Assembly (NCBI GenBank): GCA_002633005.1
Contig: NMRA01000020.1
Location: 608,673-672,672, forward strand
Reading direction: 5' to 3'
From: Phoronis australis
Taxonomy: Eukaryota > Animalia > Phoronida
DNA: 64,000 nucleotides
The notes below the pieces were generated by a model. That model made no database searches, was not told the origin of the DNA, and saw nothing but the letters and a program-made list of their open reading frames with translations. A program made the position numbers and the translations under genes. Below, piece after piece: positions 11,477 to 46,119 of this stretch (positions are counted from its first letter, which is position 1; each line of letters begins with the position of its first letter).

Positions 11477-11675
11477 ATGAGGCTGTTCAGATATCAGTAC
11501 TGTAAAGTGATCATAGCCACGTCCTTGGTGTGGTTCCTGCTAGATGTGGCCATACTTATGTACTTCACGGACTGTACGTCTCAGTCGACGACGGACTGCA
11601 AGAACAGTGGCCAGGTTGAGAAGAAGGACTCTCAAAAGAAAGAGGGAGGTTTCCTAGAAAAGCTATTACCCAAAG
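11477..11675 (+). CDS. GALNT1: GALNT coding exon 1 (cytoplasmic tail, type II TM anchor, start of stem)
   Basis: [33 protein letters not shown] closely resembles the GALNT1 N-terminus; donor AAG|gtatg, phase 1. Confidence 0.93.
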
Positions 11676-20600: not shown

Positions 20601-23600
20601 AATGCTTGTGTATTGGGAGACGCAATGTTTTTAAATCAATTTCAAGCAAACACATGTTTATTTTTTGTTGTTTGAAGAATTGTTGAATAACAGCAGGTGT
20701 GGTATTGAATGAAGTTTGCTCAAAGCTGTGATAAGTAACTAAATTTTATGTCACATAATATTGAGTTGAAATGTTGGCTTTTTGAACCTTTACTATCTGT
20801 GTCGTCATGGCATCAGTCAGTAGTTTTGTGGTGATGATCGAATGTTGTTAATAGAACTGTTATCCCTTGGATTATAGTTCCTTCCCTGGTTAATTGACAA
20901 TTGAAGTATTTATAGTGCTGTAACTGTTCACTCTTTTTAATGACTAACAGTTGACATTTTTGTGCCAGAAACCTGGAGTGGTACTTGCGTTGGCTGCACT
21001 GTATCTCACCCAAGTGTTAGTCTCGCGGCATGCATGTGTGGTTGTGCCATATATGTATGGTTGTGCCATGTATGTATGGTTGTGCCATGTATGTATGGTT
21101 GTGCCATGTATGTATGGTTGTGCCATACATGTGTGGTTGCGCCATGTATGTATGGTTGTGCCATGTATGTATGGTTGTGCCATACATGTGTGGTTGTGCC
21201 ATACATGTGTGGTTGTGCCATGTATGTATGGTTGTGCCATGTATGTATGGTTGTGCCATGTATGTATGGTTGTGCCGTACATGTGTGGTTGTGCCATGTA
21301 TATGCATCACAAAATGGACTATTGTTATCAGTGGTCAAAAAGCTCTTGTGGAGGGTAACAAATCTGAACCAGTGAACTCCACTGTCATGGTGGGCCTGGT
21401 GTCAAGTTAAGAGTCAAAACTGGCTGTACACACAAACTTTTAAGAAATGTTTCACTGCCATACTCAAACCAAAAGGAAAATTTTTAACGATAGTACTGTC
21501 CATGGCTTTTAATATTTTTATGCTCCCACTTATTCATGGGTGCATGTTTCTGTCATATACCTAAACATCTGGCGTCCACTACTGTGTCCCCTCAATCCCT
21601 TACCACGATCTTAGTGAGATTTTGTAGATGTGCTCCCATGGAGCTGATGACAGATGACGAAAAGTTTCGGACCTATCCGACTACAGCTGTGTCCCCTCAC
21701 GGCAATTTCATTTTTTCCATTTCCTTCTTTATCTTGGACTTCCTTGACGGATTCTCATGAAATTTCGCAAAAGAGGTTTCTGCTAAAAAGACGTCGGATG
21801 GAGCTTATGTACTCTATGCCACCTAGTGGACAATTCGTTTTTGAGTCCATCTCAAACGATCATTATAAAAATCGCCGTATGTTTTCCCGATGAGAAGACG
21901 ACTAATGTTGGTTTTCGAACGAATCTGAGTACTGTGGTGACACTAGTGCATCTGTAGGATCTTTGTGAAATTTGGCAAGTGAATTCTAATGAACTTGACA
22001 ACAGGTACATACAGATCTGACTACCGTTGTGCTTCCTAGTGCCAGTTTTATTTTGACAATTGCTTCTGTATCTTTTGAGTTTCTCGACTAATTTGCATGC
22101 TATGGGACAATAGATTTTCCCATTTTCTGACCAAGTTCAATGTATTCTGCACCATCCATATGATATTGATAAGCACCCATAGAAGCATACCATTTGCTGT
22201 GCAGCCGTGAGTACATTTCAGTGCTTTGCGTTTCTGTTGTTTTGCTCTTCACCAAGTCACACCTTGCATTCATAAATTTGGTATTGTTTGGTCTGTGCCA
22301 CGAGAACATGTACTTTGTCTTTTACATCACACAGCCTCACTTCTCATATGTTCTTACAGCCCTTCAGCCAAGGCGCGTGCCCAACGGCCCTGGAGAGATG
22401 GGCAGGGCAGTGGTGATCCCGCCAGACAAGAAGGCGTATTCTCAAGAGCAATTTAAGATCAACCAGTTCAACCTTGTAGCCAGTGAGATGATGTCACTGA
22501 ACAGAAGCCTGCCGGACTACAGAATGGAGCAGTGAGTACAGCCGCTTAGACTATAACATGCACATAGTGTCTGATTACATGGCAGATTCTCTCATCTTCT
22601 GTCTAAAAAATTTCCGTATATGTTCATCAATCAGTCCGCAGGTGAAGTAGGTGCGTATGATGCGTAGTCAGTGTCACGCATACCGTATTCGCCGTAGTAA
22701 CCGCCCATGCCCCTATAAGCGCCCCCCACGCGTTTTCAGACTTTGCTGAAATAAGCGCCCAGTCCATGAACGTGTACATGCGAACAATGACGTACCTTCA
22801 GTCCTAAAACTCGGCTACAGTAACGTCTTCAATTTATCAACAAAAAAAATTTTCTACGGGTCTTCTAGACCACCAATGGCACTGCTACATTTGTATTTAG
22901 CCGTGACTATACACTTCAAAGTAACACAGCGCTTCAAAAAGAACGCAACAGCGTTGCTACTTTCGCGACGACTGTGTCCCACTATGGTCTGACCTTTCAG
23001 TAGACACATCGACTGTTTAAATAACTCGGTGTTGAATGCACGTGGCCAGAAAGCGCGCGCTACATATATGAACCTAGCTGTCATCAAAGACATTAGTCGG
23101 GAACTATCCATTCATGAAACGGGTAGCATAGCATCCGTAAGAAATGAATATTGGCCCTAATTTCCGACAATTTCTAATACTATAAAACATGTTTGCGTTA
23201 TTTTTTAAAGGGATTGTTTGATTAACCATAATTGATGTTTTTAAACCGAATATCCGATAAAATGACAACTGACAGTGAATGCTTGCACACCCTTACACCG
23301 AAAAATAACTGTCAGATAGTTACGTACGCATCCAGCTACACGGCGACTAATATGGGCGGCATAATATGGGCCTTACCGAAACAAATGTCGAACGTTTTTA
23401 GCACGAGACTGGCAAGTGCTGAATGAAACACGCTCTGGTTTAGGCTTACTGCTTGTGCAAATTTCTTTAGACGCAATGCACATCTAGCTCGTTAGATCGC
23501 GTGGCTCTGGCCAAAAGACGGTCTCTGCTTTGGCAAATGAACTCTGGTTACACGCACGCGCTCGCTTACTCGCAGACGAACTTCAAAACAAACGTCACGT

Positions 23601-26600
23601 GACAACAACATGTGTGTTCGTCCAGACATTTTTCTCGCCATGTTGCCGATCATACATGTAGATGGCACGATGTTGCGCAGATTTGTACTTAAAACTGCCG
23701 TAAATCCAGACTCCACGGGAACTTAAAAAAAGTCTTAGGGACGCTATTTAGAAAACTTAATGAGGATTTCAGGTAATTTGCTTGAGTCGAACCTATTTTT
23801 ATTGAAGCATTGAAGTCGCCATATCGAAGACGGCAATTTTGAGGCAGTCATTCGGCGAGTTTTCGCCCTGGGATTTCAGCACAATTTTCTGTAAAATGAT
23901 CGTAATTTAGCAGCAAAGTTTGATAACAATGCACCACAGTTTTGTTGGAAGTCTTTCATAGATTACAGATACGTCACAGAACGTAAATTTGATGAATCTT
24001 AGCTTCCGATTTCACCCGTTTCGGAGACCGGGTTTCAACCGCCTTGGGTTATAATAAGCGCCCCCCTGAACAAAACTTTTCTAAACGCCCTGGGCAGTTA
24101 TTACGGCGAATACGGTAAACGATGTGCAGCAGTGGCCGCATGGTATGCAGCAGTTGTTGCATGGTGTGCAAGACTTAAGTTAGTGCTGCATTGTTCACTG
24201 AGACTGACTTCCATCTTAATGGATAATTTTTGCCATGCCTGGACACTGTGCACAGTGTATGTGTTTAATTTTCACAGCTTTCTTTATGTGCACTTGCACA
24301 TAGTCTCAGTGTGGCTATTTTGGAGGCGTATAATTAGTCATGTGACATGTCAACTGATTATGTGAAACTAGGTCTGGTTCCGTAGATTAGGGTAGAGGGC
24401 AGCACAGTGTACCACGTATAAATTGAGTACACAACGTTTAGCAAAATCATGCGCGGCTAGCACTACGTAGTGAGACGGCTACATTCAAATGAACGCTATT
24501 TGTAGTTTGGGTTTGTGGTAATTGCACGATTCGTTTGTTAGAATGACAGACATGCACATTTATTTTGCTGCTCAAATTTGCTAGTAGCATGAGCCATTTC
24601 AGTCGCCATCTTGTCGTGTATTTACTATGGGCCGAGTTTGTTGCTGGTTTTTTCAAGAATTTTTGTTGGCATGTGAATGGAATTTGTTGAAAACTTTTTT
24701 GTGTTTATTTAGTCATGAGGAGAGAGTCAGCTGGAAATAGTTGCTTTGAAATTTCACCAATATAAGATGAGACTTTGTTCACTTTTTTGAAAACAACTTC
24801 ATTTTGTACTAAGTCTATGTCTTGAGACCTTTACTGGAATCCATATTCAGCATAATGTTAAAGTGTGCTTGGCTTTTTGGTGTTAAGAAAGGCTTACACT
24901 AATCTGAGAGGTATTTGAAGGTGCAATATATGAGGAGATATCGGACTTGAGGGGACTATTTAATTGTATGGATGGGAATATTTGGGCCTTGAGAATTTCT
25001 TGTGATGTTTAAGTGTTTTTCTAAGGGGAATGAAGTCGATACTTGGTCCCAAAAGTGAGGCCTTGAGGGCCCTGATATGTGCTGTCACCAGTATTTCTCT
25101 TAAAAGGGGAATAGTTGTTGGTAGATGTGTTATAAGTTTCAGACTCACATTTGGACTTCCATTTTCAGGTGTAAGTCCAAAGAGTATAACGTTGAAGAGC
25201 TTCCCACAACCAGTGTTGTCATTGTGTTCCATAATGAGGCATGGACTACGCTACTTCGCACTGTTTGGAGCATTATCACCCGATCACCACGCCACCTGTT
25301 GAAGGAGATTATTCTCGTGGATGATGCTAGTGAACGAGGTAGGTGACTGATGGTGCTTCCACATTGGTGTAGATGACTGGAGTCCCTTAATTGGTGTAAA
25401 ACTCAGTCTATTCATTCAGAAGAATGTTTAACTTTTCTCATGTGGATTTTAGTATACCTTAAAGTAATTAAAGTTTTCAAAAGGGACACAAGTAAACAGA
25501 TGAGTCGGGTGGTTATAAGGGTCACGAAGGGTTGTCCAGGACCAGTTGTCATTTCTTAACCAAATTAAATGGTCCATACTAAAGATTAGCACTATTTTTT
25601 GTATGTAAAAAGGGTGATATGGAGACTGAACTGATTTGTGGCTGATGCTGGAGTCCTATGCATTTAAAGTCGAACAATAGGTCTGGAAATTGACTTGGAA
25701 TTTAGTAATTTGATGCAGTTACACAGTTTTGTGTATGTCTTTTTGATGGATTTGTCATGCCTTGGGAGATAAAGTGTAATGTTTTTGTACACAAATAAAG
25801 TGTAATATGATTGTGTAGTCGAAATTTGCTTCGTCACAACTGAACTCATTGTCACGAACAGCGCCAATTATAAGTGAACCATGACATTGTGCTAGCTCCA
25901 CCTATACGTGAACCATAACATGCTAGCACCATCTTTTGGTGAATCATAACATGCTATTTGCCATCAATAGGTGAACCATGATGTTGTGGTAACAGCATCA
26001 GCAGGTGAACCATAACATCATGTTATCGCCATGTCATATGTGAACCATGTTATGCTAGCGCCATCTATATTTGAACCATAAACTTATACAACCGCCACCT
26101 GTAGGTGAACCATACCATTATGTTAGCACCATCTTTTGGTGAACAACAACGTTATGCTGGCACTGTCTATAGGTGAACCATAATGTTATGCTAGCTCTAT
26201 TTACATGTGAACCCCAACATTATGCCAGCACCATGTATAGGTGAACCACAACATTATACTGGCACCATCTATAGCAGAACTCTTCAGGTATGTTTCATTT
26301 GTTTGTAGATTTCCTGGGCAAGAGACTAGAGCAGTACGTGGCCACTCTGCCCGTATCAGTCAAGGTGATAAGGATGGGCAAAAGGAGTGGATTAATCAGG
26401 GCCAGGTTGACAGGTAAGTGGTTTAATGACCTATGGTCAGGGGCTGACATGACCACAAAGTCATAAGAATAGACAGGCAGTCTATTGGTTTTAGTTTATA
26501 GTTCTGAGCATTTGCTAATAAGTTCTGTTCTCACCGGAATAATGGCATTAACTGATAGCATAGTTCTAGGTTTGGAAAAGCTTAAATTCTTAACATATTA

Positions 26601-29600
26601 TAATGAATGGTAGACAGTAAATGTTTTAGATAGTTGGATACAGAATTGAGAACTTGATTCTGTGAGTATATGAAATCTTGTCAATATTTCTCAGACCCAT
26701 AATGGTACATGTTCAAGTAGCGTCTGTTGTTGCATAATGTGAAGTCTTTATGTGCATTTGCCGTACGTTGTAAAGTCCGGATACACATTTGCCGTATTGT
26801 AAAATTATTTTGTACATTTGTTGTGTAGGTGCTGAGGCTACAAAGGGCAACGTGATCACATTCCTAGATGCCCACTGTGAATGCACAGAGGGCTGGTTAG
26901 AACCACTACTCTATGAAATCTACAAGGACAGGTAAATTATCTGTTGGCTGGTGAAATGTCTTCTCATCATTATGTTTAAATTTGTTGTTGTACCAACTGA
27001 TTAGAATGTGATCAAAGATCAGAAACTCAAATGTGTGAATCGATAATCATCAAATCAGTGCTCATTCTGTAATATGTTTTCAGGACAAATGTGGTTTGTC
27101 CAATCATCGATGTGATCAGCGATGAGACATTTGAATACATCGCAGGGTCAGACATGACGTGGGGAGGCTTCAACTGGAAGCTCAACTTCAGGTGGTACCC
27201 TGTTCCACAGCGGGAACTGACCCGCAGAAACAATGACCGCAGTCTGCCTCTCAGGTGTGTATACGTGCCTCTCAGGTGTGTTTATGTGTGTTTTAGTGTA
27301 TTTTGTGATGTCGTGTGCACTTTGGATTTGTTGTTTTCAAAAAAATGACAAAATTGTAGTGAAATTATTTTGTTTTGTCTAGCCAGTGCAAACATTCTGA
27401 AGAATTGGATTTGGGCTTGAATTTGTTTTTGCGTCATTAAGGACATATTTCAAACAGGTTCGGGGATGGGCCGCGCAAAAAGAACATTCTTTAGTTTACT
27501 CTCAACTGTTAAGCTACTGGAAGCTTTTTAATAACATTTTGGTCATGTCAGAAATTTACTCCCTGGGTATAATCCTCTGGCACTGCCTTCACCTCACTAC
27601 CAGATGGTAGTTCTCAGTGGCATGTCTTAAAATTTTTATTGGCCAACGCAGAAATTATTTAACTGTATTATTCTGCTGTAACAGTGAAGAAGTCTGTGTT
27701 TGATGTTTCTGTTAGCATCATTTGTTTTTTGTTGTAGGTCACCAACCATGGCTGGTGGTCTTTTTGCCATAGACAGGAGTTACTTCTATGAGATCGGATC
27801 CTATGACCCAGGCATGGATATTTGGGGTGGCGAGAACTTAGAAATGTCCTTCAGGGTGCGTCATCTTTTGTAGTAAAGTTTTAGCCCCACGCATGTGTGG
27901 TTTTCTAGGCAGAAACATGCCACTTATCATAATGGAAGTAACTGTATTATGCTGCTGATATAGTTTTCATCCAAATGTTTCGTGCAAGGCAGAATTGGAC
28001 ACTTTATGTTAAGTAATTTGTTGAAATCGGTTTGCTACATGGAATTAAAGTTTGAACGTTCACGTGCCGGTTTCAAATCAACGTTCTGTTAGGCTCAAGC
28101 TCTAAATGCCTAAGGATTGTAGTCTTGGTGTCTTGGTGTTTTTCACTGCGTAATAATTTTTGCTGTCTTGGTTTGGCTTTATGCTGTTACTACAGACACT
28201 AAATGTGATTTTTACGAAATCTCGCATCTAAACTGACTGAAGTTTGGATAGAATGAAAAAATTTGGACTTTCATTTTTATGCGCCCACATATTATATGTG
28301 GACGCATTATGCCGTCATCTCTGTCCGTCCGTCCGGGCGGCGTCCGGCATCCGCTGCTCTATCTCCAAAACCCTTTGACATACGTTCATGAAATTTGTTC
28401 CATTCATGAATGGGACGGCATGTGCGAACTTTCGGACGGATGCGACTACCGGTGTGCCCCCTAGTGGAATTTGGTATGTAGGCACGTATTAGTGAGATGA
28501 TGCTATCCTGCCGTTTTCAGATGGATTCGACATAGTTTGCGTCACCTAGTGGCCATTTTTAGTGTTTTCGAGTCTGTTTTTGTGCGTCCACCCCTCTATC
28601 AACCAAACCGCTCAAAGGATGATTGTGAAAATTGGCATGTATATGCTTACTATGTAGAGGACGGTTGACGATGATTTTCCGACGATTTCGACTACTGTNN
28701 NNNNNNNNNNNNNNNNNNNNNNNNNNNNNNNNNNNNNNNNNNNNNNNNNNNNNNNNNNNNNNNNNNNNNNNNNNNNNNNNNNNNNNNNNNNNNNNNNNNN
28801 NNNNNNNNNNNNNNNNNNNNNNNNNNNNNNNNNNNNNNNNNNNNNNNNNNNNNNNNNNNNNNNNNNNNNNNNNNNNNNNNNNNNNNNNNNNNNNNNNNNN
28901 NNNNNNNNNNNNNNNNNNNNNNNNNNNNNNNNNNNNNNNNNNNNNNNNNNNNNNNNNNNNNNNNNNNNNNNNNNNNNNNNNNNNNNNNNNNNNNNNNNNN
29001 NNNNNNNNNNNNNNNNNNNNNNNNNNNNNNNNNNNNNNNNNNNNNNNNNNNNNNNNNNNNNNNNNNNNNNNNNNNNNNNNNNNNNNNNNNNNNNNNNNNN
29101 NNNNNNNNNNNNNNNNNNNNNNNNNNNNNNNNNNNNNNNNNNNNNNNNNNNNNNNNNNNNNNNNNNNNNNNNNNNNNNNNNNNNNNNNNNNNNNNNNNNN
29201 NNNNNNNNNNNNNNNNNNNNNNNNNNNNNNNNNNNNNNNNNNNNNNNNNNNNNNNNNNNNNNNNNNNNNNNNNNNNNNNNNNNNNNNNNNNNNNNNNNNN
29301 NNNNNNNNNNNNNNNNNNNNNNNNNNNNNNNNNNNNNNNNNNNNNNNNNNNNNNNNNNNNNNNNNNNNNNNNNNNNNNNNNNNNNNNNNNNNNNNNNNNN
29401 NNNNNNNNNNNNNNNNNNNNNNNNNNNNNNNNNNNNNNNNNNNNNNNNNNNNNNNNNNNNNNNNNNNNNNNNNNNNNNNNNNNNNNNNNNNNNNNNNNNN
29501 NNNNNNNNNNNNNNNNNNNNNNNNNNNNNNNNNNNNNNNNNNNNNNNNNNNNNNNNNNNNNNNNNNNNNNNNNNNNNNNNNNNNNNNNNNNNNNNNNNNN

Positions 29601-32600
29601 NNNNNNNNNNNNNNNNNNNNNNNNNNNNNNNNNNNNNNNNNNNNNNNNNNNNNNNNNNNNNGGTGCAATTGTGGGCGCATTTCAACGCTCTGCATTGCTC
29701 TTGTTACGTTTAAGTTTATTTATTCTTTCCTTTGATTTGGACGTCTATTGTTTCTCTCCTGTTGTTCTATTGTCTGTCATCTCTGGATGTCTCCAAACCA
29801 GATCTGGATGTGTGGTGGCCAGGTGCTTATTGTCACGTGCTCCCATGTAGGACACGTGTTCCGCAAGGCGACGCCGTACACTTTCCCCGGCGGCACAGGG
29901 CGCATCATCAACCACAACAATGCCAGGCTATCGGAAGTCTGGCTGGATCAGTGGAAACATTTCTATTACAAAATCAATCCAGGTTAGATAATGCGATAAA
30001 GCATCGCATGCGAATGGTCATGTTTTAGACTTGCCTGCATGGCTATACTTGACTTGTATCTTCAACCGCCTGACTGTTCTCTGACCTCAGGTAGTGCGGT
30101 GTTCACCTAAGACTTGGGGTTGAGGTTACAATGTTATTTGCCGTTGCATGGTAGTTGTGTCTCCGAGGGCAGTACCTATTGTGGTGTTCATTTCCAGGAG
30201 TTAAATGTAATCAAAATAAACAGTTCGTATTTCATATTCATTTGAAGTAAGACTTCACGTGAAGTATTTTGCAAAGCGTACAGTGTCATTTGGATTTCAT
30301 TACTTCCTCGATGCACCACACGTAATGTCCTCAGGAAACATAGTGCATTATTTTGCCTCATTGTGCGGCTGTTCTAAACACGCATTTCTCTCCATCATTC
30401 ATTCATTTCTGCACACAACAGGTGTGGATGTGCGGGGGCTCTGTCTTGATCGCCACGTGCTCCCGCGTCGGACACGTCTTCCGAAAGGTCAGCCCATACT
30501 CGTGGCCAGGTGGCGTTAGTCGCATCCTCAACCACAACACCCAACGCACGGCCGAGGTCTGGATGGACAAATACAAGAACTTCTATTACAAAATCAGCCC
30601 AGGTTCGACCTTTCACTCTTGACCTCTGCCTCTGAGGTCAGACCTTTGACTCAAAGTGTCCTCTCTGGTTAAAGTTGCTGTGTCATTTCAGTGGGCAACA
30701 CCACATTCACTTGCTGTTGCTTAATAAGAAAAACCTTCTTTTTAAACGTATCAAAATAACCTGTTAATAAAAAACTTCATGAGATTCGATTGTGAGTTGT
30801 TTCACTAGCCTCACCCAGTGTATATAATGACTGACTATCTCACTGATGCAGTGGGTCTGATCATGTCGATTAATACTGACTGCATGTATAACATCACCAT
30901 GACTGTAATTAATGGAAGTCATGCCATCTATTTCTTAAATGCCTGAGGAACCTTCTATTAATATGATGATCATAATGACCATTAGTTAAGAAATGTCCAC
31001 TGGATGACATGACAACTTCATGCTTGAATGTGTTTTGCTGTCGCCGTCTGCTTTCAGCTACTAACTTTCATCGTTTCTTCTAATGTTTGCGTTTGTTCTG
31101 TTTTCTAGGTCTGTGCGGCTTATTAACATTTATTAACCAATTGTTGTTGTGTCTGTCTATGAGTTGGCTGCTCACCAATTTGTCAGCATGCATCATATAG
31201 TTAGCTGATCACATGCTACTTGGCATGCTTGTGCTTCAGCTTGAGTTCAAGGGTTACTCGTGCAGCTGATCTCTGTGTGTTTGCATAATATGTGTGTGCA
31301 TGTGTGTGGTAGAATGTGTGTCTGGTTGTTGAAAATTGTTTCACTGTCTTAACACTGTCACTGAACAGCACCAGCCGTGCGCAGTAGAGGGGAATGAGAA
31401 CGCAGTGTTAGATTTCTTTTGGCTGTGTTTAATTGTTAGTCACCACAGTCATGTTCTGCCTTTATTTTGCATCGTTTTATCCAAAATCTTGTTAACTTTG
31501 AAATCATTCTTTACATAGTTTTCTTAATATGAAGTCTTAATATTAAGTGCCTTTCCTTTAAGAGCCAATCAACACCCGTCCATCAATCGATGACATTTCC
31601 ATGGAAACAAAGCCACCACTGTCTAGACTTTACATTGTTCATCTTTGCCTGTACCATTAATTGAGTTAAGATGGTTGCATTCTGTAACCAATCAAATTAA
31701 TTGCATTTTGTTTGGTGCATTGTCAGTTGACTTTCAAGGTTATTACTTGTTAACCCTTTGAAGCAAACGTTGCTGTAATCCAAATACAACAAACAGCATC
31801 ATGTCTATGAAAGCTTAATATGCTATTTTGCACCACTGGTACATAATGGATATCAGTGTCATGAGAGACAAGCTTCGTGCTTGCCTGTGTTAACCATCCA
31901 CTGTTTTTGTGCTAAAATCTTGTTTAGTTTTTCTCCTTTTGTTTTGACTTTTAATTTGCTTGCATTGATGGTTAGTAAACACTGGAGAACTAGACTAAGT
32001 ATCGATTATTTGTGGTCCTCAGTGAAATACTATGGTCACTTGGGATCTATTAGTGTTTTCACTGTTACGGCTGGTGGGGTTTTTGTTATCCAGTTGAGTT
32101 TCAGATTCGCACTGTTTGTTGTGTGTGTAATGTAGTTTGCGTTCACTTGTTTGGTGTTGTTTACTGGCTGTTCTGAGTATTTGTTTTTAGTCTGGACTGC
32201 TGTGGCTGTGATGGTAGTTAGATGTTAATCTTTTTGAATTGTGATTGTCGCTTAAATAACTGGTCTCAAAATTCTGCAGGCCAGGATACTAAGTGATTTC
32301 TAAAATTAAAAAGAAATGGAAGGTCACTAATGATTGATAGAATGCAGTACAGTTATGGGGGGGGGGTCTGCCCTGTCAAAATGCCCTGGGTTGTTGTTGA
32401 TAATCTCTGAATGATGTGTTTTGGGATTGACATATAACTATGGCTGAAGTCTAGTGTCGTGTTATATCATGGTACGGAAAGTTTAAGGTGCGTTTTGTGT
32501 GGTTAACAAATCAGGTGTTTGTTTTAGACAGTGACTTCGAGGATAGGTCCCTGTAACGCCTGCTAATGCTGAGTGATTGGTGTTTATAAACTCTCGTGGA

Positions 32601-35600
32601 GGCTATTTTATTTTTGTTTAAAACGAATCACCTACAGTGTAATAAGGGTGTTTTCACTTAGTCAAAATGTCACCAGTCCCACATAATCAGTCTCCATTGC
32701 TTCTTGAGAGTCTCTCATTGGCTGACCAGTGAGGTGTGTTTTCTGGAAAGCTCAATTTAAGTTAAATCGGACTTTCGGGTGCGTGTCCTAACTATTCTGT
32801 TTGTAATCACATAAGGCTGTGTTTCGATTCTGTTTCATATATTATTTTTCAAAACTGATATCAAGATTTTCAGGGTTTTCCCTCTCCTTTGTGGCACTAG
32901 GACATGTAAGTCGACCAAATTGGGATAGCAGAGGCACATTTCATGTCAGATCTTGCATTCAATTTTTAAAATGAGCCAAACATAATCTTATATAACCTCA
33001 CCCCAGATGTGTTCTTACATGGCCTTGCACCATACATGGTCTTACAATTCCACTGGGTTTGATGAGCTATCTTCCCTCAGATCACCGTTTTGTATTTTTT
33101 AAATCTAAAAGCTGAAATGACAATCCTAAGTACGTTGATGATTTCGCATTTTATAAAATTTCTCAAAATAACTTTTGCTGCATTACATTGAATGGTTTTG
33201 TGAAATATAATCCAGAACAGGGTCGCATTGATTTTAGTAGTCTGTTAGAAAGTTTCGACTATCCTAGCGCTTAGTATGATTTATCCCGTGTTATCGCCAG
33301 GCGTACGGCAGACAGATTATGGGGATGTGTCCGAGCGCAAAGCTCTGAGAGAAAAGCTCAAATGCAAGAGTTTCCATTGGTACTTGGAGAACATCTACCC
33401 CGAGTCACAGATGCCTCTGGATTACTACTCTTTGGGAACAGTGAGTGAAATTATCGTCTGCGATGAATTAGTCATGCTCTAGTCCTGAATTAAATGGTGT
33501 TCATGAAACTGCGCGTAAGTGGAGTTGACATTACTATCTACAGACTGTCTGCATTGAAGCTTGGATGCCTTTTTGAAGTTCTCTGAGGAATGTGTGTGTG
33601 TGTGCGTGCATGCGTGTGTTTGTGTGTGTGTGCGTGCATGCGTGTGTGAACCAGACATGAAGTCAGTTTTATGAAGAGTGACCAAAGTCTTTAGACAGAA
33701 CTTTGGTCTTATACTCCCTATTCACAATTGCTGAATAAGGATAATTATGAGAGCATCACGGTTTACAAATAATACATTCAGCAACTAGCAGTTTTCAATT
33801 GTGTAACTACATTCTTGGAGATTTTGCGTTTTTTTTGCGCAAATGACGTTTAATAGTTTTTCAGAAATAGTTCTGCGTAGCACAAAATCAAATTTCGGAC
33901 TTAAGTCTCATCTAATTCTTCATGAGACAGACCCCTGTTATAGTTTGGACTCTGTAGTTAAATTTGTATTACACGTTTCCATAACGTTTTTGCCTTGAGA
34001 ATGACCTGAGTTGTGTCTTTAACGCACATGTGAGATTCCTCTGATTGACCATAGGAAACCCATTTTCAATTGGCTCATGCTTTCATATAAACTGACAAAA
34101 TGTGCTTGTTCGTAAGGGGTTTGTTGATGTTATGTTCAGCAGCTGTGTTGACTCAAAATCACTTGTCATGTAGAACTATTTACAGTCCTCTGTTACACAG
34201 TGAGCATATGTTTGAAGCAGATGGATCTTGTGGGACCCTGATCACATGTAGAAAATTTAAAATTTGAAATCTTGCAACTTGTTGACAGTTCAGTATCACT
34301 GCATCATTGCTAGTCCATTGAGTATGTATTCAGCTGCTGATGTAGCATTTTAGCTTTGTTGGTGTATACCGTAACCCCTGTGTGATGACTTTCAGATAAA
34401 GAACAAACAAACTGGAAAGTGCCTTGACAGTATGGGTCGAAAGAGTGGGGAGAAACTGGGAATGGTCAACTGCCACGGAATGGGGGGGAACCAGGTATTG
34501 GGATTGTCAGTCGTGTCTGCAGACAAACTTGGAAATTATTATAATCAGTATTCAGACTGTCCGATTGTCAGGCTCACTTGGCAGATAGATTTTAGAGAAC
34601 AATTAAATTTCGAAAATTGCCAAATGTGAAATTTACATGGAATTTACTATGACAATATAGAATGGAAAGGATTTTGTATAAAGGTCCTGTGTGATTAACT
34701 TTGTTAAGTCTTCGCCTATTTAGTGCTTGCTGTGACTGACTAGTCTGATTTTAGTTTGATAAATTTCTCCACAAAAATGTAATGGTTTGAAATGCACAGC
34801 TCTCATTATACAGAACCCAGTGAAAGTTTGCTCGTTGCAAGGTTATCGGCCATTGAAATGATATTTTAACAATTGCCTTGTGTGAAATAGGCGACGAATT
34901 GCCATTAAAGTTTTTAGTGATTATTTGAAGATAAAGAAGGCAATAATGTTTAATCCCATGTCATCCCCTGTCTCATTTACTCTTGAATGTATTGAGACCA
35001 TAGTTTTGTGTGTTTTACTGTCTATTAACTTAAGTGTAAATAATGCATTTCAAGCCACGGCTAGTTGACTTGCTTGATCAGTGCTGAGAGCTGTGCTAGA
35101 ATTGCTGTCATGTTGAGTCGTTCATTGTTTTTTGTACGTTTTTCTCCTGCTGCCAGATTTTCTCGTACTCAAAGAAGAAGGCATTTCAGACAGATGACGT
35201 CTGCATTGATGTGTCGGCCGTCAACGGTCCCGTCAATCTGTTTCAGTGTCACGGGCTGGGGGGAAACCAGCATTGGGAATACAACCGGCAGGTTTGTCAT
35301 GACGCATCACCTTGCATGGTTGATGTCGACGTGTGAAGGATGTAGGGAATCATGGACAGTCTTGATGGCAGGAGGGCTGTTTCACACATTATCTGACTGT
35401 CCTTGTGTGATTTTGAAAATTGTCTTGGAGTTTTGCTTTCCCAGCATGACTTCTGAGATCTTAAAAATGGTCTGTTGTATGAACCATTGAATTTTGTTTA
35501 AAGTTGCCAAATCCTTACTTTTTTAACCAATTTTGATTTTACGAATTGTCACAATTTTTGTTCTGTAAACATGCCTGTTACCAACAGCTAATAAATATCC

Positions 35601-38600
35601 ATTGTATTAGTGCCACATGGACTATATTTCTCAGAATGCAAGGAACACAAACAGATACAGTATGAAACTGGGCCCCTGAACTGTTTATCATTGCACACAA
35701 TATGCAAATATTCTCCCAGGTGTTTGTGTTTGTGTGTAACGGTTTTGAGACTCCACCCTTCCCTCATCTCTCCTGTCCATGATTCGTCGCCATCGTTCAC
35801 GCCCGGCCCCGTCATCTGTATCACTAACACGGCTCGTCGTTTCACCTTCGTATTTTTGCTCTTCAGATTTTTTCTTATGTGGCCACCAAACAAATACAGG
35901 CCGACGACCTGTGCATAGGTGCACAGTACTACACCGCCATACTAATGTCTTGTCACACGGTGTCCGGCGGACAATGGCTTTATGATCGACAGGTAGTGTT
36001 GACGCATCTCCTGGGAAGGGTTTGGGTATCTGGTCTGGAAAACGTTTTAATGTCTGCCAGTTGCGCTGTTCACGCTTTTTCAATTTTTATGAATTTCGTG
36101 TTGAGTTTTGTTCGAAAGCTTTGAATTTTTTTCTCTGTTGAAGAACAATGATACAGTTATTGGGAGCATGTTAATAAAGCATTTTGTTATTATTTAATAA
36201 ACGATGGTCTACTGTGGCAGTCAAATAAGTAGATGTTTTAATTTTTTGATACTTTAAAAAGGAATGACTTTATCCTAATGATATTTATTGCATAATTCTC
36301 CGTAGCACCGGAAAATTCAGGGATTTCATTTATGGCGCTGCTTCTGTATTTCAAATGCATTGTGTGAGGGTTGTCAGTTTGTACTTACTAGGTGATATCA
36401 CAGATTACTTGTTGATGTGTACACAATGTGAAGGAAAACTTGCGCACACGAGAATTATAAGCAAACTCCACTACAACATGTCTTTGGGTGCAAGTGTAAC
36501 AAAATAGCCATCATAGAAGAAATAAACAGTGAAAGTGAGCCTCTAAAGGCATCAATATTTGATTAGCAATTTTTGGCGGAAGATTTTCGAGTCATGCCCC
36601 ATCCAGTCGTTTGGTGTCGGATCTCACCACCTGAAATGCAAATCATGAAACAAGTTATACACCCACAAGTTATCTATGTTGTCACTAGATGTTTATGAAC
36701 TGACAAGTGTCCCACAATGCATTTGGGTAACAACAGCACCGCCACAGGTGAGATTGCCTGAATTGAGTTGTTTGACCAGGTCTCAAATTGTTGTTTGCTT
36801 CTTATTTGTCAAATAGTCGGTGTGGAGTGCTTGGTGCCCTGCTTCTTTAGTTTCTTCTGAATCGTCAAAACATGATTCATGTTAGCCGAAATCCATTTTT
36901 TATCAAGTAATACGGTTGATGAAAGGTTTGTTCAGGTCATGTAGGACTGTGGCTGATCTAAATGAAACTTTTAGACACTTCCCTTATGCGCTACTCTCCT
37001 AAATGCTGTTAGGGATTGGTGTTGAAATTGTCCACCTTTGCATGAGGGCTTTCAAAAACAAGAATGTCTAATAAAATTTGATCATGCTATTAATACTTTC
37101 AAAGTATCATGTTTTTGCTAAAAACTTGGTCATGTGACCTAATGAATGACAGATTTGTAAAAAGTCAAAAATCAAATTCTACAGGCTTACTATGTTGGAA
37201 AGATAAACTTAGAATCTATAGGTTTGTAGATATTTGGCTAAGTATACTAAATATAAAAATAATAATTGCAGGTGGTCTGGTATACGTTGTACCAGACACC
37301 TCAGGTTGGCCCATTGCACTGATCACCTGGAACCATTTTTATGCTTTGTTAATATATAATAGTTAAAATGGAGCCGAGGAGTTAGAGACCTGACTCGAGG
37401 GTCTAGCAGTGTACCCCAGTGAGTCTTGCACCCACGACTTTCAGTTAAAGAAGTAGGCACTTATCCTATAAAGCCACTCTGCCTCTTGTCCTACAAAACC
37501 TTATATCAACCGCAAAATCTTATCACCAGGGGTGGATCCAGGATTTTTAGTTAGGGGGGGCATGGCAGAGTATTAGTCAGGATTTTGCCTGTCAGACATT
37601 CGCACCCCCCATCTGACAAATGTAAACTGGGAGAATTTTAGGGGGGCCATGGCCCCCCTCTAAATCCGCCACTGATCACATCAACCTGATCCTGTTCTTA
37701 ACTTGAGATTGTTGTTTTAGCTGGTGGAATAGATGATGGACCGTTTTGTAGTGTGGGGTACTTGAATGTTTTTGTGGCTAGGATTCCCGTTTCCCTGTCG
37801 CTCTCCTGTGTGTTGGGATGAGCTTGTCTATGTATGCTCAATCCACCTCTATAGAAAATTACGTGGTGGGAAGTTTCTTAGTAGTTTTTTTAGCTAATGC
37901 AATGTAGTTGAAGGCTGCAGTCATCCAGCACAGTTGACTCCTGCAGCTTTGCTTGTTAAAGTTTACTAATTGTTTATTGTGGTCAGTTGTTGGACAGGAG
38001 CTTGTTTGGGATGCTGAGTCCTGCTGTCAGACCAATTATAAAATGAGGGACTAAGTGTTGAAAGTTTTTAAATTTAATTTTGTACTTTTTGGTTCAATAA
38101 TTTGATTTTTTATTTTATTTGGTACATTTTATACTTTTCTAATTAATTGGAGTTTTTGTTGTAATTATTATGTTAATTTTCAGCTTGTTGTTATTCTGAT
38201 CATGATGCCATTTTCCAATCCACCGGTGACTTAAATCATGGACACATCTTGAAAATTAGCCTATTGTCTCTGCATGATTCCCTGTGCATGGAAAGAAATG
38301 TCCCATTCCTACAGATTAGTGACTATTGCTTGACCTTTTCTTGCCCATTTGGAACACGTAATACAGTAACTGTGAATGACCACTATTTCTAGACGTTTCT
38401 GTGTAGGGTTAGTTTACCAGTGAATAGATCCAGATTATTTAGCTTAAGGCTGCATTCCGTCTTGGTTTAGCTGTCGATGTTGAATTCTTAACCAAAGCAC
38501 TTTGTGGTTTTAAAACATTGCCGTGCTCATCTGAGTTATTGACCAATAAATCTCTGAAGCATTTTTTGAGGCACTGATGGTTTCGATGTTCTTGTTGGTA

Positions 38601-41599
38601 ATGGATGTAGAATCGTGTTTTGGCAAGAAGTATGAGACTGAATTTATGACAGTTAAATGTTCCACAGGGTGTAATGCAGCTTTAAAATAGGAAAGAGTTA
38701 CATCACCTGGAGGAAAGCCAATGAGTTTGGTGTTGGTTTTTGACTAGCATACAAATTCCTCGTTTTCTTTAAGACATTTTGCCACTGTTAATTACTGTTC
38801 GCCTCGCCCTAATAACTGTGTAGTATACTTAGTGAAGCGACATTAACGGCTTAGTGAAAAGTCCTCGTCTTGTTTCTGCATTTTCTGGCATTGACTAAAA
38901 CAAAATGGCCATCTCAGTGTTTAAAAATAGCGTTGCACTCCGGTTTCGTGTGTCAGTGCTGTACCCCAGTACAAAAACGTTAATTACCGATATTCTACCT
39001 CCATTTGCCCCTCTATGTACCGAATCGCTAAACGAATCGTGAAAATTGGGAAATGTGTTCTTACTGACTGTAGCAAGACTGACATTCATTGATTTTCAGA
39101 TGTTTCTGACTTCTGTGGTGCCCCCTACTGTCATTTTGTTATGCACCTGCGACTGTATCTCCTAAACCCCTTGTAGGATTTTTGTGAAATTTGACAAAAT
39201 GCATCTCTATGAACGTGACAACGTATGACCACTTCTCTCGAATGAATGTGACTACCACTGTGCCTCCTGGTGATAGTTTTATTTTTTTACAGTTGCCTTT
39301 ACAACTTCAAAGTTCATAGACAGATTTTCATGAAATTTAACAAACGCAATAGATTTCCATAACAAATATGACGGTGCCTTTCCATTTTCAGACGAGCTCT
39401 ATGTATTGTGCGCCATCCAGTGACCATTTTTTGTAATAAACACCTGGGTTGCATTTGTTTTGCAGTCGTGAATGCATTTCAACGCTTAAGATTGCTCTTC
39501 TGCTAGAAACAAAATTTTGAAAGGAACAGGTTACTGATAATAAGTGGAGGTGCAAATGTCATTGGAGAATTGAATTATTAGTTGAGATAACACCAACATT
39601 GACTTTCTTCTCGAAGTGCTGTTCCCTATGGTTACAAAAGACTTTGAGACTACCTGTGTCAGCATCTTGTCTATAATGTCTGGCCCCACTTTTGATCTGT
39701 GGACAAAATTTGCTAGATATTGGCTGATCAGTGAAGTAAGACCATAAAACGTGAATGGCTTTAAAGACTAATATAATCATATAATGAGTAATTTGATAAT
39801 TGTACAGTGTGCAAAAACTTTCTTAGTGGACATATTGCTCAGTGCAAAACTAAGAGAGAAAATAATTTATTTTTTCAAAGAAGCAACTGGATTTCCAGTA
39901 TCATTACTGAGAAATGCTATGATCGAAAAGGTCGAAAATTATCTAAAAAGTGGCGCATGTCAGCTGAGCAAGTGACAGAAAATTTTTTTGGCTAAATAGT
40001 TTTTCATAAGGTTTCCTAATTTCAACCACTAGATGTTGTTCAATTTAAAAAAAAAAATGTCGCTATACCTGCGTTCCACCCACGAAGCAAAATTGTGACT
40101 TGGATCAGTTGCCGCTATGAAAAGGGTGTTGATTAGATCCTTACTGGTATGACAAGCAATTTCTTAATTAGCAAAGAACTGACCAGATGATATTTGCTGA
40201 GACCATGCTCAGCACAATATGACACGTCGTGCCGAGCCAACCCATAGAGCCTGATGTCTAGCAGTCAAGAGACTGTCAAGTCTTTTGAAACGCTGGAATC
40301 ATTTGCAAATTGATTAGCAATGGGAACAATTTGGCTTTACAAGTTGGCTTGTCGCGGTGTGCTATTTTATGCTCCAACCTTTGTTTCATGGAAACCCATA
40401 AATATCACTTCTTATCTGAGTACGGAGTTGTGACAGAATGCATGTTTAAATCACAGGATCACTTATGGCAACATGCCTGCATTCCAGCCCAAAAAAAAAA
40501 CAGCTTGATTTAGACCATCAGAATGGAAAGACTTGATCGGTGTTTATTGCTCGAGACCAGCCTTGATAATTTCGCTTGGAGGGTGGAACACAGATTTACG
40601 GCTGCTTTAACTGCTAGCTGTTAAGTGAAGCTGATGCACTGTGCTTTTACCAAGAGTTTGTGAAAACATATACGACAAATGCATCGGGATGATTTCAGTT
40701 GTGCAGCTTTACCCATGGCAAAATAGTGTCGGTTTTTGACAGTCCACCAACCATGATTTTACTGACAGTGGTGAACATCTATTGACCATGTTCTCCCTGT
40801 TGTTAGAACTCATGTTTCTGATGTCTGACCCATATTCATCTTTTTGCAGACTCTTACAATAATGCACACTAACTCCAAGCAGTGTCTCGACACACCCAAA
40901 CCAAATGAACCTAATGTGCCATCTCTTGGTGAGTTTTAAAACTACTAGGTCACTGAATACTATGCCAGTGTCCATATCATGTATTGAATTTTTTACACTG
41001 CCAGGACTTAATAGTTGATGTGTTCTATGCTTATCATAAATGTCTTTTAAAACAAAAAATGCGGAGTCCCAGATGAACAAATTGGTAAATGATTGAAGGG
41101 TCATAAGTTGGTTGAACTGCTGTCATTGAGTTTAAAGTGAAGGTGTGTACAGCATATCCAAGGGTCACAGCTAGTTTATTGGAACACAGTGCATTTCATT
41201 GTCAAGTCTTGTTCCTATTTAATTCTGCACTTGTTTTAATAATTGAGGCACTGATTAAAAATGAGGCAAGTTTTCTTTAAATTTTTTTCGTTGTTTTTTG
41301 TGGTGGTGGGACATTTTTGAGATGTTGAATTGTTTCAAATGTTTTTCATTTTTGTTAAACTGCAGAGTCATTAGCCCCAAAAGTATTAAGTCTTATTTTA
41401 AGCTACAGTGACAGCTGTTATTGTCATGATGTTAAAATTGAAACACCCGGCTCACGTTTGTGTATGAAATTAAAGTATTCTCATCTTCTGTTGACTTTTA
41501 ACTGTTTTTCACTCATCCAAGACATTTTTTCCAGGACCCTGCAATGGAAGCCCATCACAGCAGTGGATCTTGTCCGACATGGACTGGAACAAGATGTAG
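11477..41599 (+). CDS. GALNT1: Polypeptide N-acetylgalactosaminyltransferase 1/13-like (GalNAc-T, GT27), whole spliced gene span; 13 exon positions, 2 of them duplicated
   Basis: Exons join in consistent phase with GT-AG boundaries: 199+172+170+105+103+171+118+181+140+99+135+79+65 = 1737 nt (578 aa + stop). N-terminal TM anchor, FHNEAW, DAH (DxH), WGGENLE, VGHVFRK and three ricin-type CLD/QxW repeats. Assignment to the GALNT1/13 subfamily is from recalled similarity. Confidence 0.95.
12391..12640 (+). repeat. Minisatellite, 25-bp unit x10
   Basis: caactcatgtcttgggcaatgcata in tandem. Confidence 0.95.
13160..15435. mobile_element. Helentron-associated (HINE/DINE-like) repeats, probably two adjacent copies
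   Basis: 5' tttatgcgcccac..ggacgcat subterminal IR; 3' gtgggcgcat..ttgcgttgctcttgt; same architecture as 28277-29705. Confidence 0.55.
15893..16018 (+). CDS. GALNT1: Candidate cassette exon in GALNT stem region (42 aa)
   Basis: Pyrimidine tract ending tctag|, 126-nt open frame in phase 1-1 ([42 protein letters not shown]), donor ATAG|gtact; GC-richer than the flanking intron. Confidence 0.6.
16718..16830 (+). repeat. Pyrimidine-rich minisatellite (~22-bp unit)
   Basis: ttcccatttcacagctccctcc repeated about 4 times. Confidence 0.85.
18143..18560. mobile_element. MITE (PIF/Harbinger-like termini)
   Basis: ggcctgttgcatgaaacgg ... ctgtttcatacaaccggg imperfect TIRs. Confidence 0.55.
21030..21303 (+). 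repeat. Minisatellite, 19-bp unit x~14 (source of the spurious six-frame ORFs here)
   Basis: catgtatgtatggttgtgc and catacatgtgtggttgtgc variants. Confidence 0.95.
21517..22240. mobile_element. HINE-like repeat copy
   Basis: tttatgctcccac..atgggtgcat start; internal ccacctagtgg/gactac units shared with 28277-29705 and 39100-39500. Confidence 0.5.
22360..22531 (+). CDS. GALNT1: GALNT exon (GPGEMG...NRSLPDYR)
   Basis: ttacag|CC...GAGCA|gtgagt; conserved GPGEMG and [14 protein letters not shown]. Confidence 0.95.
22683..24115. mobile_element. Tc1/mariner-pogo (Tigger-like) non-autonomous element
   Basis: TIRs CCGTATTCGCCGTAGTAACCGCCCA / TGGGCAGTTATTACGGCGAATACGG, TA target duplication, internal ataagcgccc motifs. 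Confidence 0.85.
25169..25338 (+). CDS. GALNT1: GALNT exon ([15 protein letters not shown]...VDDAS)
   Basis: tttcag|G...CGAG|gtagg; GT1 motif. Confidence 0.96.
25860..26275 (+). repeat. Degenerate minisatellite, ~34-bp unit x~12
   Basis: gtgaaccataacattatgctagcaccatctatag-like units ending ~35 nt before the 26309 exon. Confidence 0.85.
26309..26413 (+). CDS. GALNT1: GALNT exon ([10 protein letters not shown]...RSGLIRARL)
   Basis: ttgtag|AT...ACAG|gtaagt; GLIRARL motif. Confidence 0.95.
26829..26931 (+). CDS. GALNT1: GALNT exon with DxH metal-binding motif ([16 protein letters not shown])
   Basis: gtgtag|GT...GACAG|gtaaat. Confidence 0.96.
27084..27254 (+). CDS. GALNT1: GALNT exon ([10 protein letters not shown]...[12 protein letters not shown])
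   Basis: tttcag|G...CTCAG|gtgtgt; a duplicated alternative donor lies at 27275. Confidence 0.95.
27738..27855 (+). CDS. GALNT1: GALNT exon ([11 protein letters not shown]...[11 protein letters not shown]), Gal/GalNAc-T motif
   Basis: ttgtag|G...TTCAGG|gtgcgt, 118 nt. Confidence 0.96.
28277..29705. mobile_element. HINE/Helentron-like element spanning the N gap
   Basis: atgcgcccac (28279-28288) with short IR gtggacgcat, (gtcc)n microsatellite, and distal gtgggcgcat (29671-29680) followed by ttgctcttgtt. Confidence 0.7.
29802..29982 (+). CDS. GALNT1: GALNT catalytic exon, alternative copy A (canonical: [19 protein letters not shown])
   Basis: accag|ATC...CCAG|gttag, 181 nt, phase 0-1. Confidence 0.95.
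30422..30602 (+). CDS. GALNT1: GALNT catalytic exon, alternative copy B ([19 protein letters not shown])
   Basis: aacag|GTG...CCAG|gttcg, 181 nt, same phases as copy A, no stop or indel. Confidence 0.92.
33301..33440 (+). CDS. GALNT1: GALNT exon ([29 protein letters not shown]), catalytic-lectin linker
   Basis: cgccag|GC...GGAACA|gtgagt, 140 nt. Confidence 0.96.
33591..33648 (+). repeat. (TG)n-type microsatellite
   Basis: tgtgtgtgtg..tgcgtgcatgcgtgtgtg. Confidence 0.9.
34396..34494 (+). CDS. GALNT1: GALNT lectin alpha repeat exon (CLDSMGRK...CHGMGGNQ)
   Basis: tttcag|ATA...AACCAG|gtatt, 99 nt. Confidence 0.95.
35157..35291 (+). CDS. GALNT1: GALNT lectin beta repeat exon, alternative copy A (CIDVS...[10 protein letters not shown])
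   Basis: tgccag|ATT...CGGCAG|gtttgt, 135 nt, phase 0-0. Confidence 0.94.
35867..35992 (+). CDS. GALNT1: GALNT lectin beta repeat exon, alternative copy B ([42 protein letters not shown])
   Basis: Branch point cactaac 35822-35828, pyrimidine tract, cttcag|ATT...CGACAG|gtagt; 126 nt, phase 0-0; aligns with copy A (IFSY, DD.CI, CH, QW.Y.RQ). Confidence 0.85.
37365..37482 (-). mobile_element. Possible decayed tRNA-derived SINE
   Basis: Minus strand reads ggcagagtggc...aaagtcgtgggtgcaagactcac, resembling degenerate A/B boxes. Confidence 0.35.
37527..37674. mobile_element. Short MITE (CAGGGGTGGATCCAG ... CTAAATCCGCCACTG)
   Basis: Imperfect TIRs, G/C runs, 5-bp flanking duplication ATCAC. Confidence 0.75.
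40850..40928 (+). CDS. GALNT1: GALNT lectin gamma repeat exon ([16 protein letters not shown]...)
   Basis: ttttgcag|ACT...CTTG|gtgagt, phase 0-1, CLD motif. Confidence 0.9.
41535..41599 (+). CDS. GALNT1: GALNT terminal coding exon ([21 protein letters not shown])
   Basis: tttccag|GA CCC TGC ... CAG TGG ... TAG; final C-x-QQW motif. Confidence 0.9.
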
Positions 41600-44814: not shown

Positions 44815-46119
44815 AGTAAAAATTGTGCATTTCACTGCTTTCTTTGCCTATTTGTAGTAAAAACGACTTATTTTCTGTGGTATTTTTTTTTGAGCTCAAA
44901 CCTTTTAAACTTTAAGTGTTAGTCATAACATACACAAACAAACTAATAACCAAATTAATGTTCATGTCTAGCCTCTTTAAAAGTACTCACCGACGTTCCC
45001 TTTCTACTTAGTCCTCTGAGAGCACTAGACAGATAAAAATGTCCTCTCTCCGGAAGTGCTCGCCATTTGCTGCCGTCAGTGTTGTATTGTTAGCCGAAGC
45101 TGTTTGGACATTAAAAGTACTATCGCGCATCCGACCGTTAATTGTTTCTGAATGAGCCAGCATTTCGTATGGTGCAAGCAGTGCGTACATTTCCCATTCC
45201 GCAATTCTAGCGTCAGCCAATTCCTTTAAAATCTGAAGCGTTTTCTCGAGTCTGAGTGTTCTTGTTGGCGACGCACTCAGAATCCTGTCACGGTAATTAG
45301 TACTGTTAGATGGTTGCATGAGGATAACAACAGCTCAATTCGAATTTTGTTTTTTTTGGCCTTGTAAACGGGGCGAAATACAACTTTAAACACTGTGACT
45401 ACTAGAATCGACCAAAAATAGTCGAAGGTGCATTTTTACTGGAAAATGTGTCTGTTTGCTCCCTAACATCAATTTCTTAGAGATTGTTCTAAAACCCCAC
45501 GACCCATTCTACATAAGCTCGACTCCATCTGAACATAGAACAAGCGCTGACTTGCAGGACCAACGAGTTGGGCCGTGAGCTCGACCGGCTGGCATTTCCC
45601 TTTTTTGCTATTAAGAGAGTCGAATTGGAAAATTTGAAAGCCAAAAACAAAACAAAAAAAAACGCGACAAAATCAAATAATGACCTACAAACGTTACAAG
45701 TATGTTCCCGGCATTACATGTATGTAATCGTCTCCTCTGCTCTTCAGTGGATGTCAACTTAAAGCTTTTTTGGCGGGAGAGTGCGAGGAGCCGACGAATA
45801 TGTAATTTTTCAGTAAACACAGTTTGAAAAAACAAAAGGTTAACTAAAAAGTACGTCAACGTTATATGGAATATATTGTAAACGAATATACAACAGAAAG
45901 CAAATAATAAAAATGCAAAATTATGTCCATTCACGTTAACTTTCACCCTAAGTTTAGTAGAGCAGGGCCATTGGTAGCCGCTTACCGTGGAACTATTTCC
46001 ATGACGACGCTAGCACGCTCACAATTCGCTACTTCAGATCATGTTCTGACGCAACTTTATGTTTCAAATCACCAGACTATAGCAAGAGCAGATTCGCGTG
46101 TAGGTAAGTCTTATGGGTA

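What the first reader, a model, noticed from the sequence alone, without database searches (positions are those of the whole stretch)
29802..35992. A combinatorial 'modular' GalNAc-transferase: independent duplicated-exon switches in BOTH the catalytic loop and the lectin domain
Seen: one GALNT1-type gene has two separate tandem exon duplications, each copy intact with its own splice sites and the same phases (181/181 nt catalytic exon; 135/126 nt lectin beta exon). Established: GalNAc-T specificity depends on the catalytic flexible loop (peptide and donor binding) and on the ricin lectin (long-range glycopeptide preference). Splice switching of a lectin subdomain is known for Drosophila PGANT9A/B and cassette variants for C. 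elegans gly-5. I do not recall a case with both modules switchable in one gene, but could not search for one. Inference: at least 2x2 = 4 enzymes (8 or more with the stem cassette) come from one locus, i.e. O-glycosylation diversified by splicing instead of gene duplication.
Basis: partly seen in the sequence, partly recalled or inferred. Interest (0 to 1): 0.88.

Follow-up and report, generated by a model that had tools for sequence, protein, structure and literature searches.

The report
Glycosyltransferase gene with two splice switches
An invertebrate gene for the enzyme that starts mucin-type O-glycosylation carries two pairs of duplicated either/or exons, all four spliced into RNA, one pair changing the catalytic loop and the other predicted to switch a sugar-binding site on or off, so one gene would likely make up to four enzymes.

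Summary
Confirmed and expressed. The GALNT1/pgant5-type gene (+, 11477-41599) has tandem catalytic exons (181/181 nt) and lectin-beta exons (135/126 nt). RNA reads show all eight entry and exit junctions, and no A-to-B junction was listed.

The catalytic switch is not new in kind. Drosophila PGANT5A/B swap the same 60 residues (PMC12776162), although the decisive fly Asp419 is absent here.

The lectin-beta pair is shared with relatives. In 27 of 27 named species with two versions (26 molluscs, one tubeworm), one copy keeps the Asp/His/Asn GalNAc-binding triad and the other breaks it, as here. Copy B is therefore predicted to act like GalNAc-T1 D484A, an on/off switch for one glycosylation direction.

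Both pairs also occur together in an unnamed locus (L041), but there both lectin copies keep the triad.

'Independent' is unproven. No read phases the two choices, and their A fractions move together across three runs (0.85/0.67, 0.22/0.26, 0.38/0.43). The stem cassette was not tested with RNA.

I found no paper on the double switch or the beta toggle (10 searches). New variant of a known kind; interest 0.6.

The parts
11477..11675 (+). first coding exon (ATG, membrane anchor, start of stem)
   Evidence: tblastn with homologues; donor and frame
15893..16018 (+). candidate 126-nt stem cassette exon, in frame; not tested with RNA
   Evidence: AG..GT and open frame; optional stem inserts at the same point in Lineus and Crassostrea isoforms, not alike in sequence
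22360..27855 (+). constitutive catalytic-domain exons 22360-22531, 25169-25338, 26309-26413, 26829-26931, 27084-27254, 27738-27855
   Evidence: tblastn; RNA joints between the last four
29802..29982 (+). catalytic exon A (GalNAc-T1-like loop; equals T1 residues 327-386)
   Evidence: RNA joints
30422..30602 (+). catalytic exon B (lophotrochozoan type: H341R, T350S, F354W, T358V in T1 numbering)
   Evidence: RNA joints
33301..33440 (+). constitutive linker exon
   Evidence: RNA joints
34396..34494 (+). lectin alpha-repeat exon (constitutive)
   Evidence: RNA joints; tblastn
35157..35291 (+). lectin beta exon A; keeps Asp/His/Asn (T1 D484/H498/N503)
   Evidence: alignment to 8v9q; RNA
35331..35802 (+). 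predicted long-range stem (35331-35376 with 35756-35802) in the intron between the lectin copies; candidate mutual-exclusion element
   Evidence: not found in L041
35867..35992 (+). lectin beta exon B; Gly at the Asp and Asn positions, His and both Cys kept
   Evidence: RNA
40850..41599 (+). lectin gamma exons 40850-40928 and 41535-41599 (stop)
   Evidence: RNA joints; frame

Best explanation
This is a GALNT1/pgant5-type O-GalNAc transferase gene in which two tandem exon pairs are each spliced either/or, so one locus likely makes up to four enzymes, with catalytic exon choice predicted to retune peptide preference and lectin exon B predicted to switch off the beta sugar-binding site. Shown: exon structure, use of all four exons, and conservation of each pair in relatives. 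Inferred: lectin A forms would extend glycosylation in both directions from an existing GalNAc, like GalNAc-T1, and lectin B forms would lose the N-terminal direction, like the D484A mutant. Also inferred: the catalytic pair is kept exclusive because double inclusion shifts the frame, and the in-frame lectin pair needs another device, possibly the intronic stem, which would bring the A donor within about 64 nt of the B branch point. All four combinations probably exist, in skewed, partly co-regulated proportions.
For: All eight junctions are seen in stranded RNA reads and no A>B joint is listed. The five SNPs examined in the four exons are all synonymous. Catalytic B forms a 100/99 clade of 23 rows across annelid, brachiopod, bryozoan, mollusc and flatworm proteins, with four changes fixed in 23 of 23. 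A then B in tandem is seen in Lingula P0001 and in loci L039 and L041; L041 also has two lectin exons. 27 of 27 named species with two lectin-beta versions have one intact and one broken triad (Watersipora dropped because its two versions come from different proteins). Triad residues and the 29-fold D484A effect are from PMC10901373. The pgant5 spliced region is the same 60 residues, 398-457 (PMC12776162; numbering checked). One lectin type occurs with catalytic A (P0061, P0297) and with B (P0298) in one 90% cluster of unnamed records. Exon ratios differ between runs (p 0.008 catalytic, 0.034 lectin).
Against: No read phases the two choices, and the A fractions rise and fall together across X1-X3. 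Counts are small, and the read tool drops human-like reads, which may bias catalytic A (9-13 catalytic exit reads against 23-42 at the next joint). No catalytic A plus triad-broken lectin record was seen among the proteins I listed. L041 has two lectin copies that both keep the triad, and L001 and L034 have a single divergent-type copy with it intact, so the toggle is not universal. The fly's decisive Asp419 and Thr457 are absent: both copies have Lys and Pro, so the functional effect of catalytic B is not established. Mollusc models include both-included and both-skipped lectin forms. The stem is not seen in L041 (z +0.8). No enzyme assay exists.
Confidence: 0.62

Rival explanations
1. The two switches are coupled by one splicing programme, so the gene makes essentially two enzymes (AA, a GalNAc-T1-like bidirectional form, and BB), not four.
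For: A fractions at the catalytic and lectin exits are 0.85/0.67, 0.22/0.26 and 0.38/0.43 in X1/X2/X3; equality is not rejected. The spliced catalytic helices contact the lectin domain (PMC12776162 section 9), and beta loops face the catalytic domain (PMC10901373), so matched pairs could be selected.
Against: The lectin entry joints in X2 favour A (10 against 1, plus 3 loose ends) while its catalytic exits favour B. Molluscs pair catalytic B with both lectin copies. Catalytic B with an intact lectin occurs in P0005, P0024, P0028 and P0298. The test has little power.
Confidence: 0.27
2. Lectin exon B is a tolerated, drifting copy that gives a weaker enzyme with no selected role; only the catalytic pair matters.
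For: Second copies are on long branches (up to 2 changes per column), and their monophyly is weak (68/74). Loss of the triad is also what relaxed selection would give.
Against: B carries about a third to a half of pooled lectin junction reads per run, is kept in frame with both cysteines in 27 species, and its one listed SNP is synonymous.
Confidence: 0.1
3. The duplicates are an assembly artefact or dead pseudo-exons.
For: The assembly has a 963-base gap next to catalytic copy A.
Against: The copies differ at 58 of 181 nt with third-position excess, each is spliced in RNA, and each has its own orthologues.
Confidence: 0.01

Closest known systems
Drosophila pgant5, PGANT5A/5B (PMC12776162; abstract, introduction, first part of the results, sections 9 and 10, discussion read)
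   Same: GalNAc-T1 orthologue; the same 60-residue region (flexible loop plus helix-turn-helix) is swapped; arthropod models show the two copies in tandem.
   Different: The fly switch works through Asp419/Lys419 and Thr457/Pro457; here both copies have Lys and Pro. The T1-like copy is second in arthropods and first here. A shared origin is neither shown nor rejected (AU p 0.30-0.47). 23 of 23 arthropod species examined show one lectin-beta version.
Drosophila pgant9, PGANT9A/B (PMC6115407; passages read)
   Same: A duplicated lectin-subdomain exon is spliced either/or and changes substrate preference by tissue.
   Different: It is a different gene and the alpha subdomain, and it works by changing the charge of a loop. 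Here it is the beta subdomain, with predicted loss of the sugar-binding residues.
Human GalNAc-T1 dual alpha/beta lectin (PMC10901373; passages read; PDB 8v9q)
   Same: Exon lecA aligns to T1 467-509 and keeps D484/H498/N503.
   Different: Kumar et al. state that T1 lacks the fly's splice isoforms; the beta-off state is described there only as an engineered mutant.
GALNT13 / Pgant5 / gly-5 tandem duplicated exon substitutions (PMC9741552; two passages and supplement rows seen)
   Same: [quoted passage not shown]
   Different: GALNT13 against Pgant5 is scored 'different region, convergent'. No lophotrochozoan GALNT case and no double switch appear in the passages found. Which gly-5 region is spliced was not seen in any call.

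Membership tests
GT27 polypeptide GalNAc-transferase, GALNT1/13-pgant5 clade | Membrane anchor, GT-A catalytic domain and three-repeat ricin lectin in one frame | tested here: met
   All parts found by tblastn; 575-578 aa open isoforms
GT27 polypeptide GalNAc-transferase, GALNT1/13-pgant5 clade | Closer to T1/T13/PGANT5 than to other GalNAc-Ts | tested here: met
   Constitutive core 74.5% identical to Papio T13, 77.4% to Lucilia PGANT5, 47.2% to a T2; T1 is the best PDB hit for all four exons
GT27 polypeptide GalNAc-transferase, GALNT1/13-pgant5 clade | Asp/His/Asn triad in both alpha and beta repeats | tested here: met
   Met for lectin A isoforms; not met for lectin B isoforms
GT27 polypeptide GalNAc-transferase, GALNT1/13-pgant5 clade | GalNAc transfer activity | not testable with these tools
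   No assay
Tandem duplicated mutually exclusive exons | Adjacent homologous exons, same phases, each spliced to both flanking exons | tested here: met
Tandem duplicated mutually exclusive exons | Never both included | tested here: inconclusive
   No A>B joint listed at low depth; mollusc models contain both lectin copies
PGANT5A/B-type catalytic switch | Same 60-residue region swapped | tested here: met
PGANT5A/B-type catalytic switch | Asp/Lys charge change at 419 and Thr/Pro at 457 | tested here: not met
   Both copies have Lys and Pro
PGANT5A/B-type catalytic switch | Same duplication event as in arthropods | tested here: inconclusive
   No grouping rejected on 60 columns; copy order is reversed
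PGANT9A/B-type lectin switch | Alpha subdomain exon swapped | tested here: not met
   The alpha exon is single; the duplicated exon is beta
Combinatorial 2x2 isoform system | All four combinations present in transcripts | not testable with these tools
   The read tool reports joints, not phased molecules; ratios co-vary

The most novel reading that the evidence does not exclude
Lophotrochozoans have kept, since before molluscs and annelids split, a splice toggle that turns the beta GalNAc-binding site of their GalNAc-T1 on or off, a natural D484A that sets the direction of mucin glycosylation. In lineages like this one it combines freely with an equally old catalytic-loop switch to give four distinct enzymes from one gene, and other lineages have fixed one choice.
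Probability: 0.4. Interest if true: 0.75.

Novelty: new variant of a known kind. Interest (0 to 1): 0.6.

Why it matters
GalNAc-T specificity is usually diversified by gene duplication, and the two studied fly cases tune one module per gene. Here one gene carries both kinds of switch, with RNA support. The lectin pair makes a sharp prediction: a natural on/off version of the recently explained T1 bidirectionality, annotated but apparently unremarked across mollusc genomes. It can be tested at once with the published Muc5AC and MUC1 glycopeptide panels. It may bear on mucus biology in molluscs and worms, and on whether duplicated-exon switches arise repeatedly at the same enzyme positions.

Tried and rejected
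No whole genome is held for this window, so paralogues and gene number in this species were not checked.

No RNA holder was listed by sequence index; the runs were offered by species label.

A protein search with lectin B alone found nothing (1 candidate, weak search). The catalytic A representative search returned 2384 unnamed hits and was not analysed further.

Trees could not settle single against repeated origin of the catalytic duplication or lectin B monophyly (bootstrap not settled).

End-to-end pairing was not found in the intron between the catalytic copies (duplex z +0.8; whole-intron z -2.1). L039 and L041 catalytic introns gave z -2.4 and -2.2, without a shared-motif test.

The idea that the fly D419 charge mechanism applies here was rejected.

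Paper searches found no double-switch, beta-switch or lophotrochozoan GALNT1 splicing paper; I saw listings for most hits. The library lacks most subscription journals; the gly-5 search returned 0 papers, and no primary GALNT13 splice-variant paper was found. PMC8616257 and PMC6272458 (passages) had nothing relevant. The Dscam exon 17 paper was not held and is known to me here only as a title in a reference list. Supplements of the pgant5 and T1 papers were not opened; their alignments might mention other species.

The earlier-findings index returned nothing.
Full report
Observation. The window holds a + strand GalNAc-transferase gene from 11477 to 41599. The catalytic copies share 40 of 60 residues and only 28 of 60 third codon positions, so they are old duplicates; the lectin copies share 20 residues. 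Profile searches of six frames found two copies of each exon and no third, though 963 N lie just upstream of catalytic A. Each single-choice isoform is open (578 or 575 aa). Taking both or neither catalytic exon breaks the frame; taking both or neither lectin exon does not.

Expression. Three raw RNA runs and one contig set, offered by species label, were laid on the region; about 18-19% of each raw run was read, and exon reads are mostly 99% alike. In X1/X2/X3 the joints are catA>next 11/2/5, catB>next 2/7/8, alpha>lecA 16/10/14 and alpha>lecB 8/1/7. Loose ends give lecA>gamma 12/6/19, lecB>gamma 6/17/25, exon 7>catA 9 (X1) and exon 7>catB 3 (X1) and 5 (X3); five loose-end rows were not shown. 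One search shows the lectin exits as GT..AG joints. No A>B joint was listed for either pair. The five SNPs I examined in the four exons, and one in the alpha exon, are synonymous. Exon ratios differ between runs (chi-square p 0.008 and 0.034, small counts).

Independence. This is the weak point. The catalytic and lectin A fractions at the exit junctions are 0.85/0.67, 0.22/0.26 and 0.38/0.43, and equality is not rejected in any run. That fits co-regulation or strict coupling as well as free mixing. Against strict coupling: lectin entry joints in X2 favour A, molluscs combine catalytic B with both lectin copies, and one cluster of unnamed records has the same lectin type with catalytic A (P0061, P0297) and B (P0298). 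I saw no record of catalytic A with a triad-broken lectin. The tool removes human-like reads, which may depress catalytic A counts.

Catalytic pair. Copy A matches GalNAc-T1 residues 327-386. Copy B belongs to a 100/99 clade of 23 rows from annelids, Lingula, bryozoans, molluscs and flatworms (phylum labels from my own knowledge of the source names), with H341R, T350S, F354W and T358V fixed in 23 of 23. A-then-B order recurs in the Lingula model P0001 and in loci L039 and L041. All 125 mollusc proteins examined (43 species) carry only B (the starting query carried B, and three large clusters were listed only in part: 15 of 34, 15 of 27, 15 of 26). Locus L006 runs from the upstream exon to B with no A between. 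The seven nemertean isoforms carry only A. The same region is alternatively spliced in Drosophila pgant5 (residues 398-457, PMC12776162), where Asp419 raises activity on basic mucins; here both copies have Lys at that position and Pro at 457. Arthropod models show their two copies in the reverse order. The arthropod first copy shares T350S (11 of 11) and T358V (10 of 11) with B, but AU tests reject no grouping (p 0.30-0.47), so shared origin against convergence is open.

Lectin pair. Lectin A aligns to T1 467-509 and keeps Asp484, His498 and Asn503, the residues that bind GalNAc in the beta repeat. Lectin B has Gly at the Asp and Asn positions. In T1, D484A lowers kcat/KM 29-fold on a peptide with a C-terminal GalNAc and removes N-terminal-directed glycosylation (PMC10901373); PGANT5 follows the same trend. 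Of 80 named species parsed, 28 had two beta versions. Dropping Watersipora (two different proteins), 27 of 27 have one intact and one broken triad: 26 molluscs and Lamellibrachia. These are database models, some annotated by transfer, and molluscs are not independent of each other. The window's B groups with pteriomorph bivalve B copies (96/86) and has the same 42-residue length, but all second copies together get only 68/74. Exceptions: L041 has both pairs yet both lectin copies keep the triad, and L001 and L034 have one divergent-type copy with it intact. None of 23 arthropod species shows a second beta version.

Exclusion mechanism (inferred). For the catalytic pair, double inclusion gives a premature stop; nonsense-mediated decay is a recognised route to exclusivity (PMC6071210, passages). 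The lectin pair cannot use it. Its 575-nt intervening intron folds better than 100 of 100 shuffles (z -3.2), and its ends pair better than 150 of 150 shuffles; it is the only one of 12 introns of the gene tested to do so. The core helix 35331-35376 / 35756-35802 would leave about 64 nt between the A donor and a CTAAC branch motif 40 nt before B. This is a lead only: L041 shows no such structure, and mollusc models include both-in and both-out forms.

Comparison and novelty. Single-module switches are known: catalytic loop in pgant5, lectin alpha in pgant9 (PMC6115407), and GALNT13, Pgant5 and gly-5 are listed as convergent tandem-exon events (PMC9741552). In ten searches of a library that lacks most subscription journals, I found no report of both modules switching in one gene, of a beta-site toggle, or of this gene's splicing in lophotrochozoans. 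The isoforms themselves sit in RefSeq as X1/X2 models. The organism is a lophotrochozoan: constitutive core 81.6% identical to Owenia and 80.1% to Pecten, catalytic A 88% to Capitella. I did not place it further.

Verdict. The feature is real, expressed and ancient; it is a new variant of a known kind. The beta-site toggle is a specific, cheap-to-test addition. Interest 0.6.

Noticed in passing
window 28290-28698 and 29662-29705: A highly repeated, heavily transcribed element flanks the 963-N gap (read depth over 1000 on one strand); a related piece lies near 39140-39400, and another repeat at 37150-37650.
   Followed up: no
L001, L002, L004, L010, L014, L034: Unnamed loci with only catalytic B after the upstream exon and a single divergent lectin-beta exon; the two Watersipora proteins differ in triad state. 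Possibly splice choices fixed in separate gene copies.
   Followed up: partly
P0080 (Dendroctonus): The gene model holds three catalytic-exon copies.
   Followed up: no
P0001, P0006, P0068, P0076, P0178, P0241, P0151, P0155: Database models that wrongly or unusually string both alternative exons into one protein.
   Followed up: partly
window 46108-46974 (+): Broken open frames that look by eye like LTR retrotransposon reverse transcriptase / RNase H, downstream of the gene (label from recall, not searched).
   Followed up: no
window 12395-12640 and 21030-21300: Intronic tandem repeats seen in the sequence.
   Followed up: no
window 35300-35319 and 36000-36019: A 20-nt direct repeat (80% alike) just after the donors of both lectin copies, a possible relic of the duplication or a shared regulatory motif.
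   Followed up: no
L055:206-1177: Two truncated starts of the catalytic exon precede an intact B-type copy.
   Followed up: no
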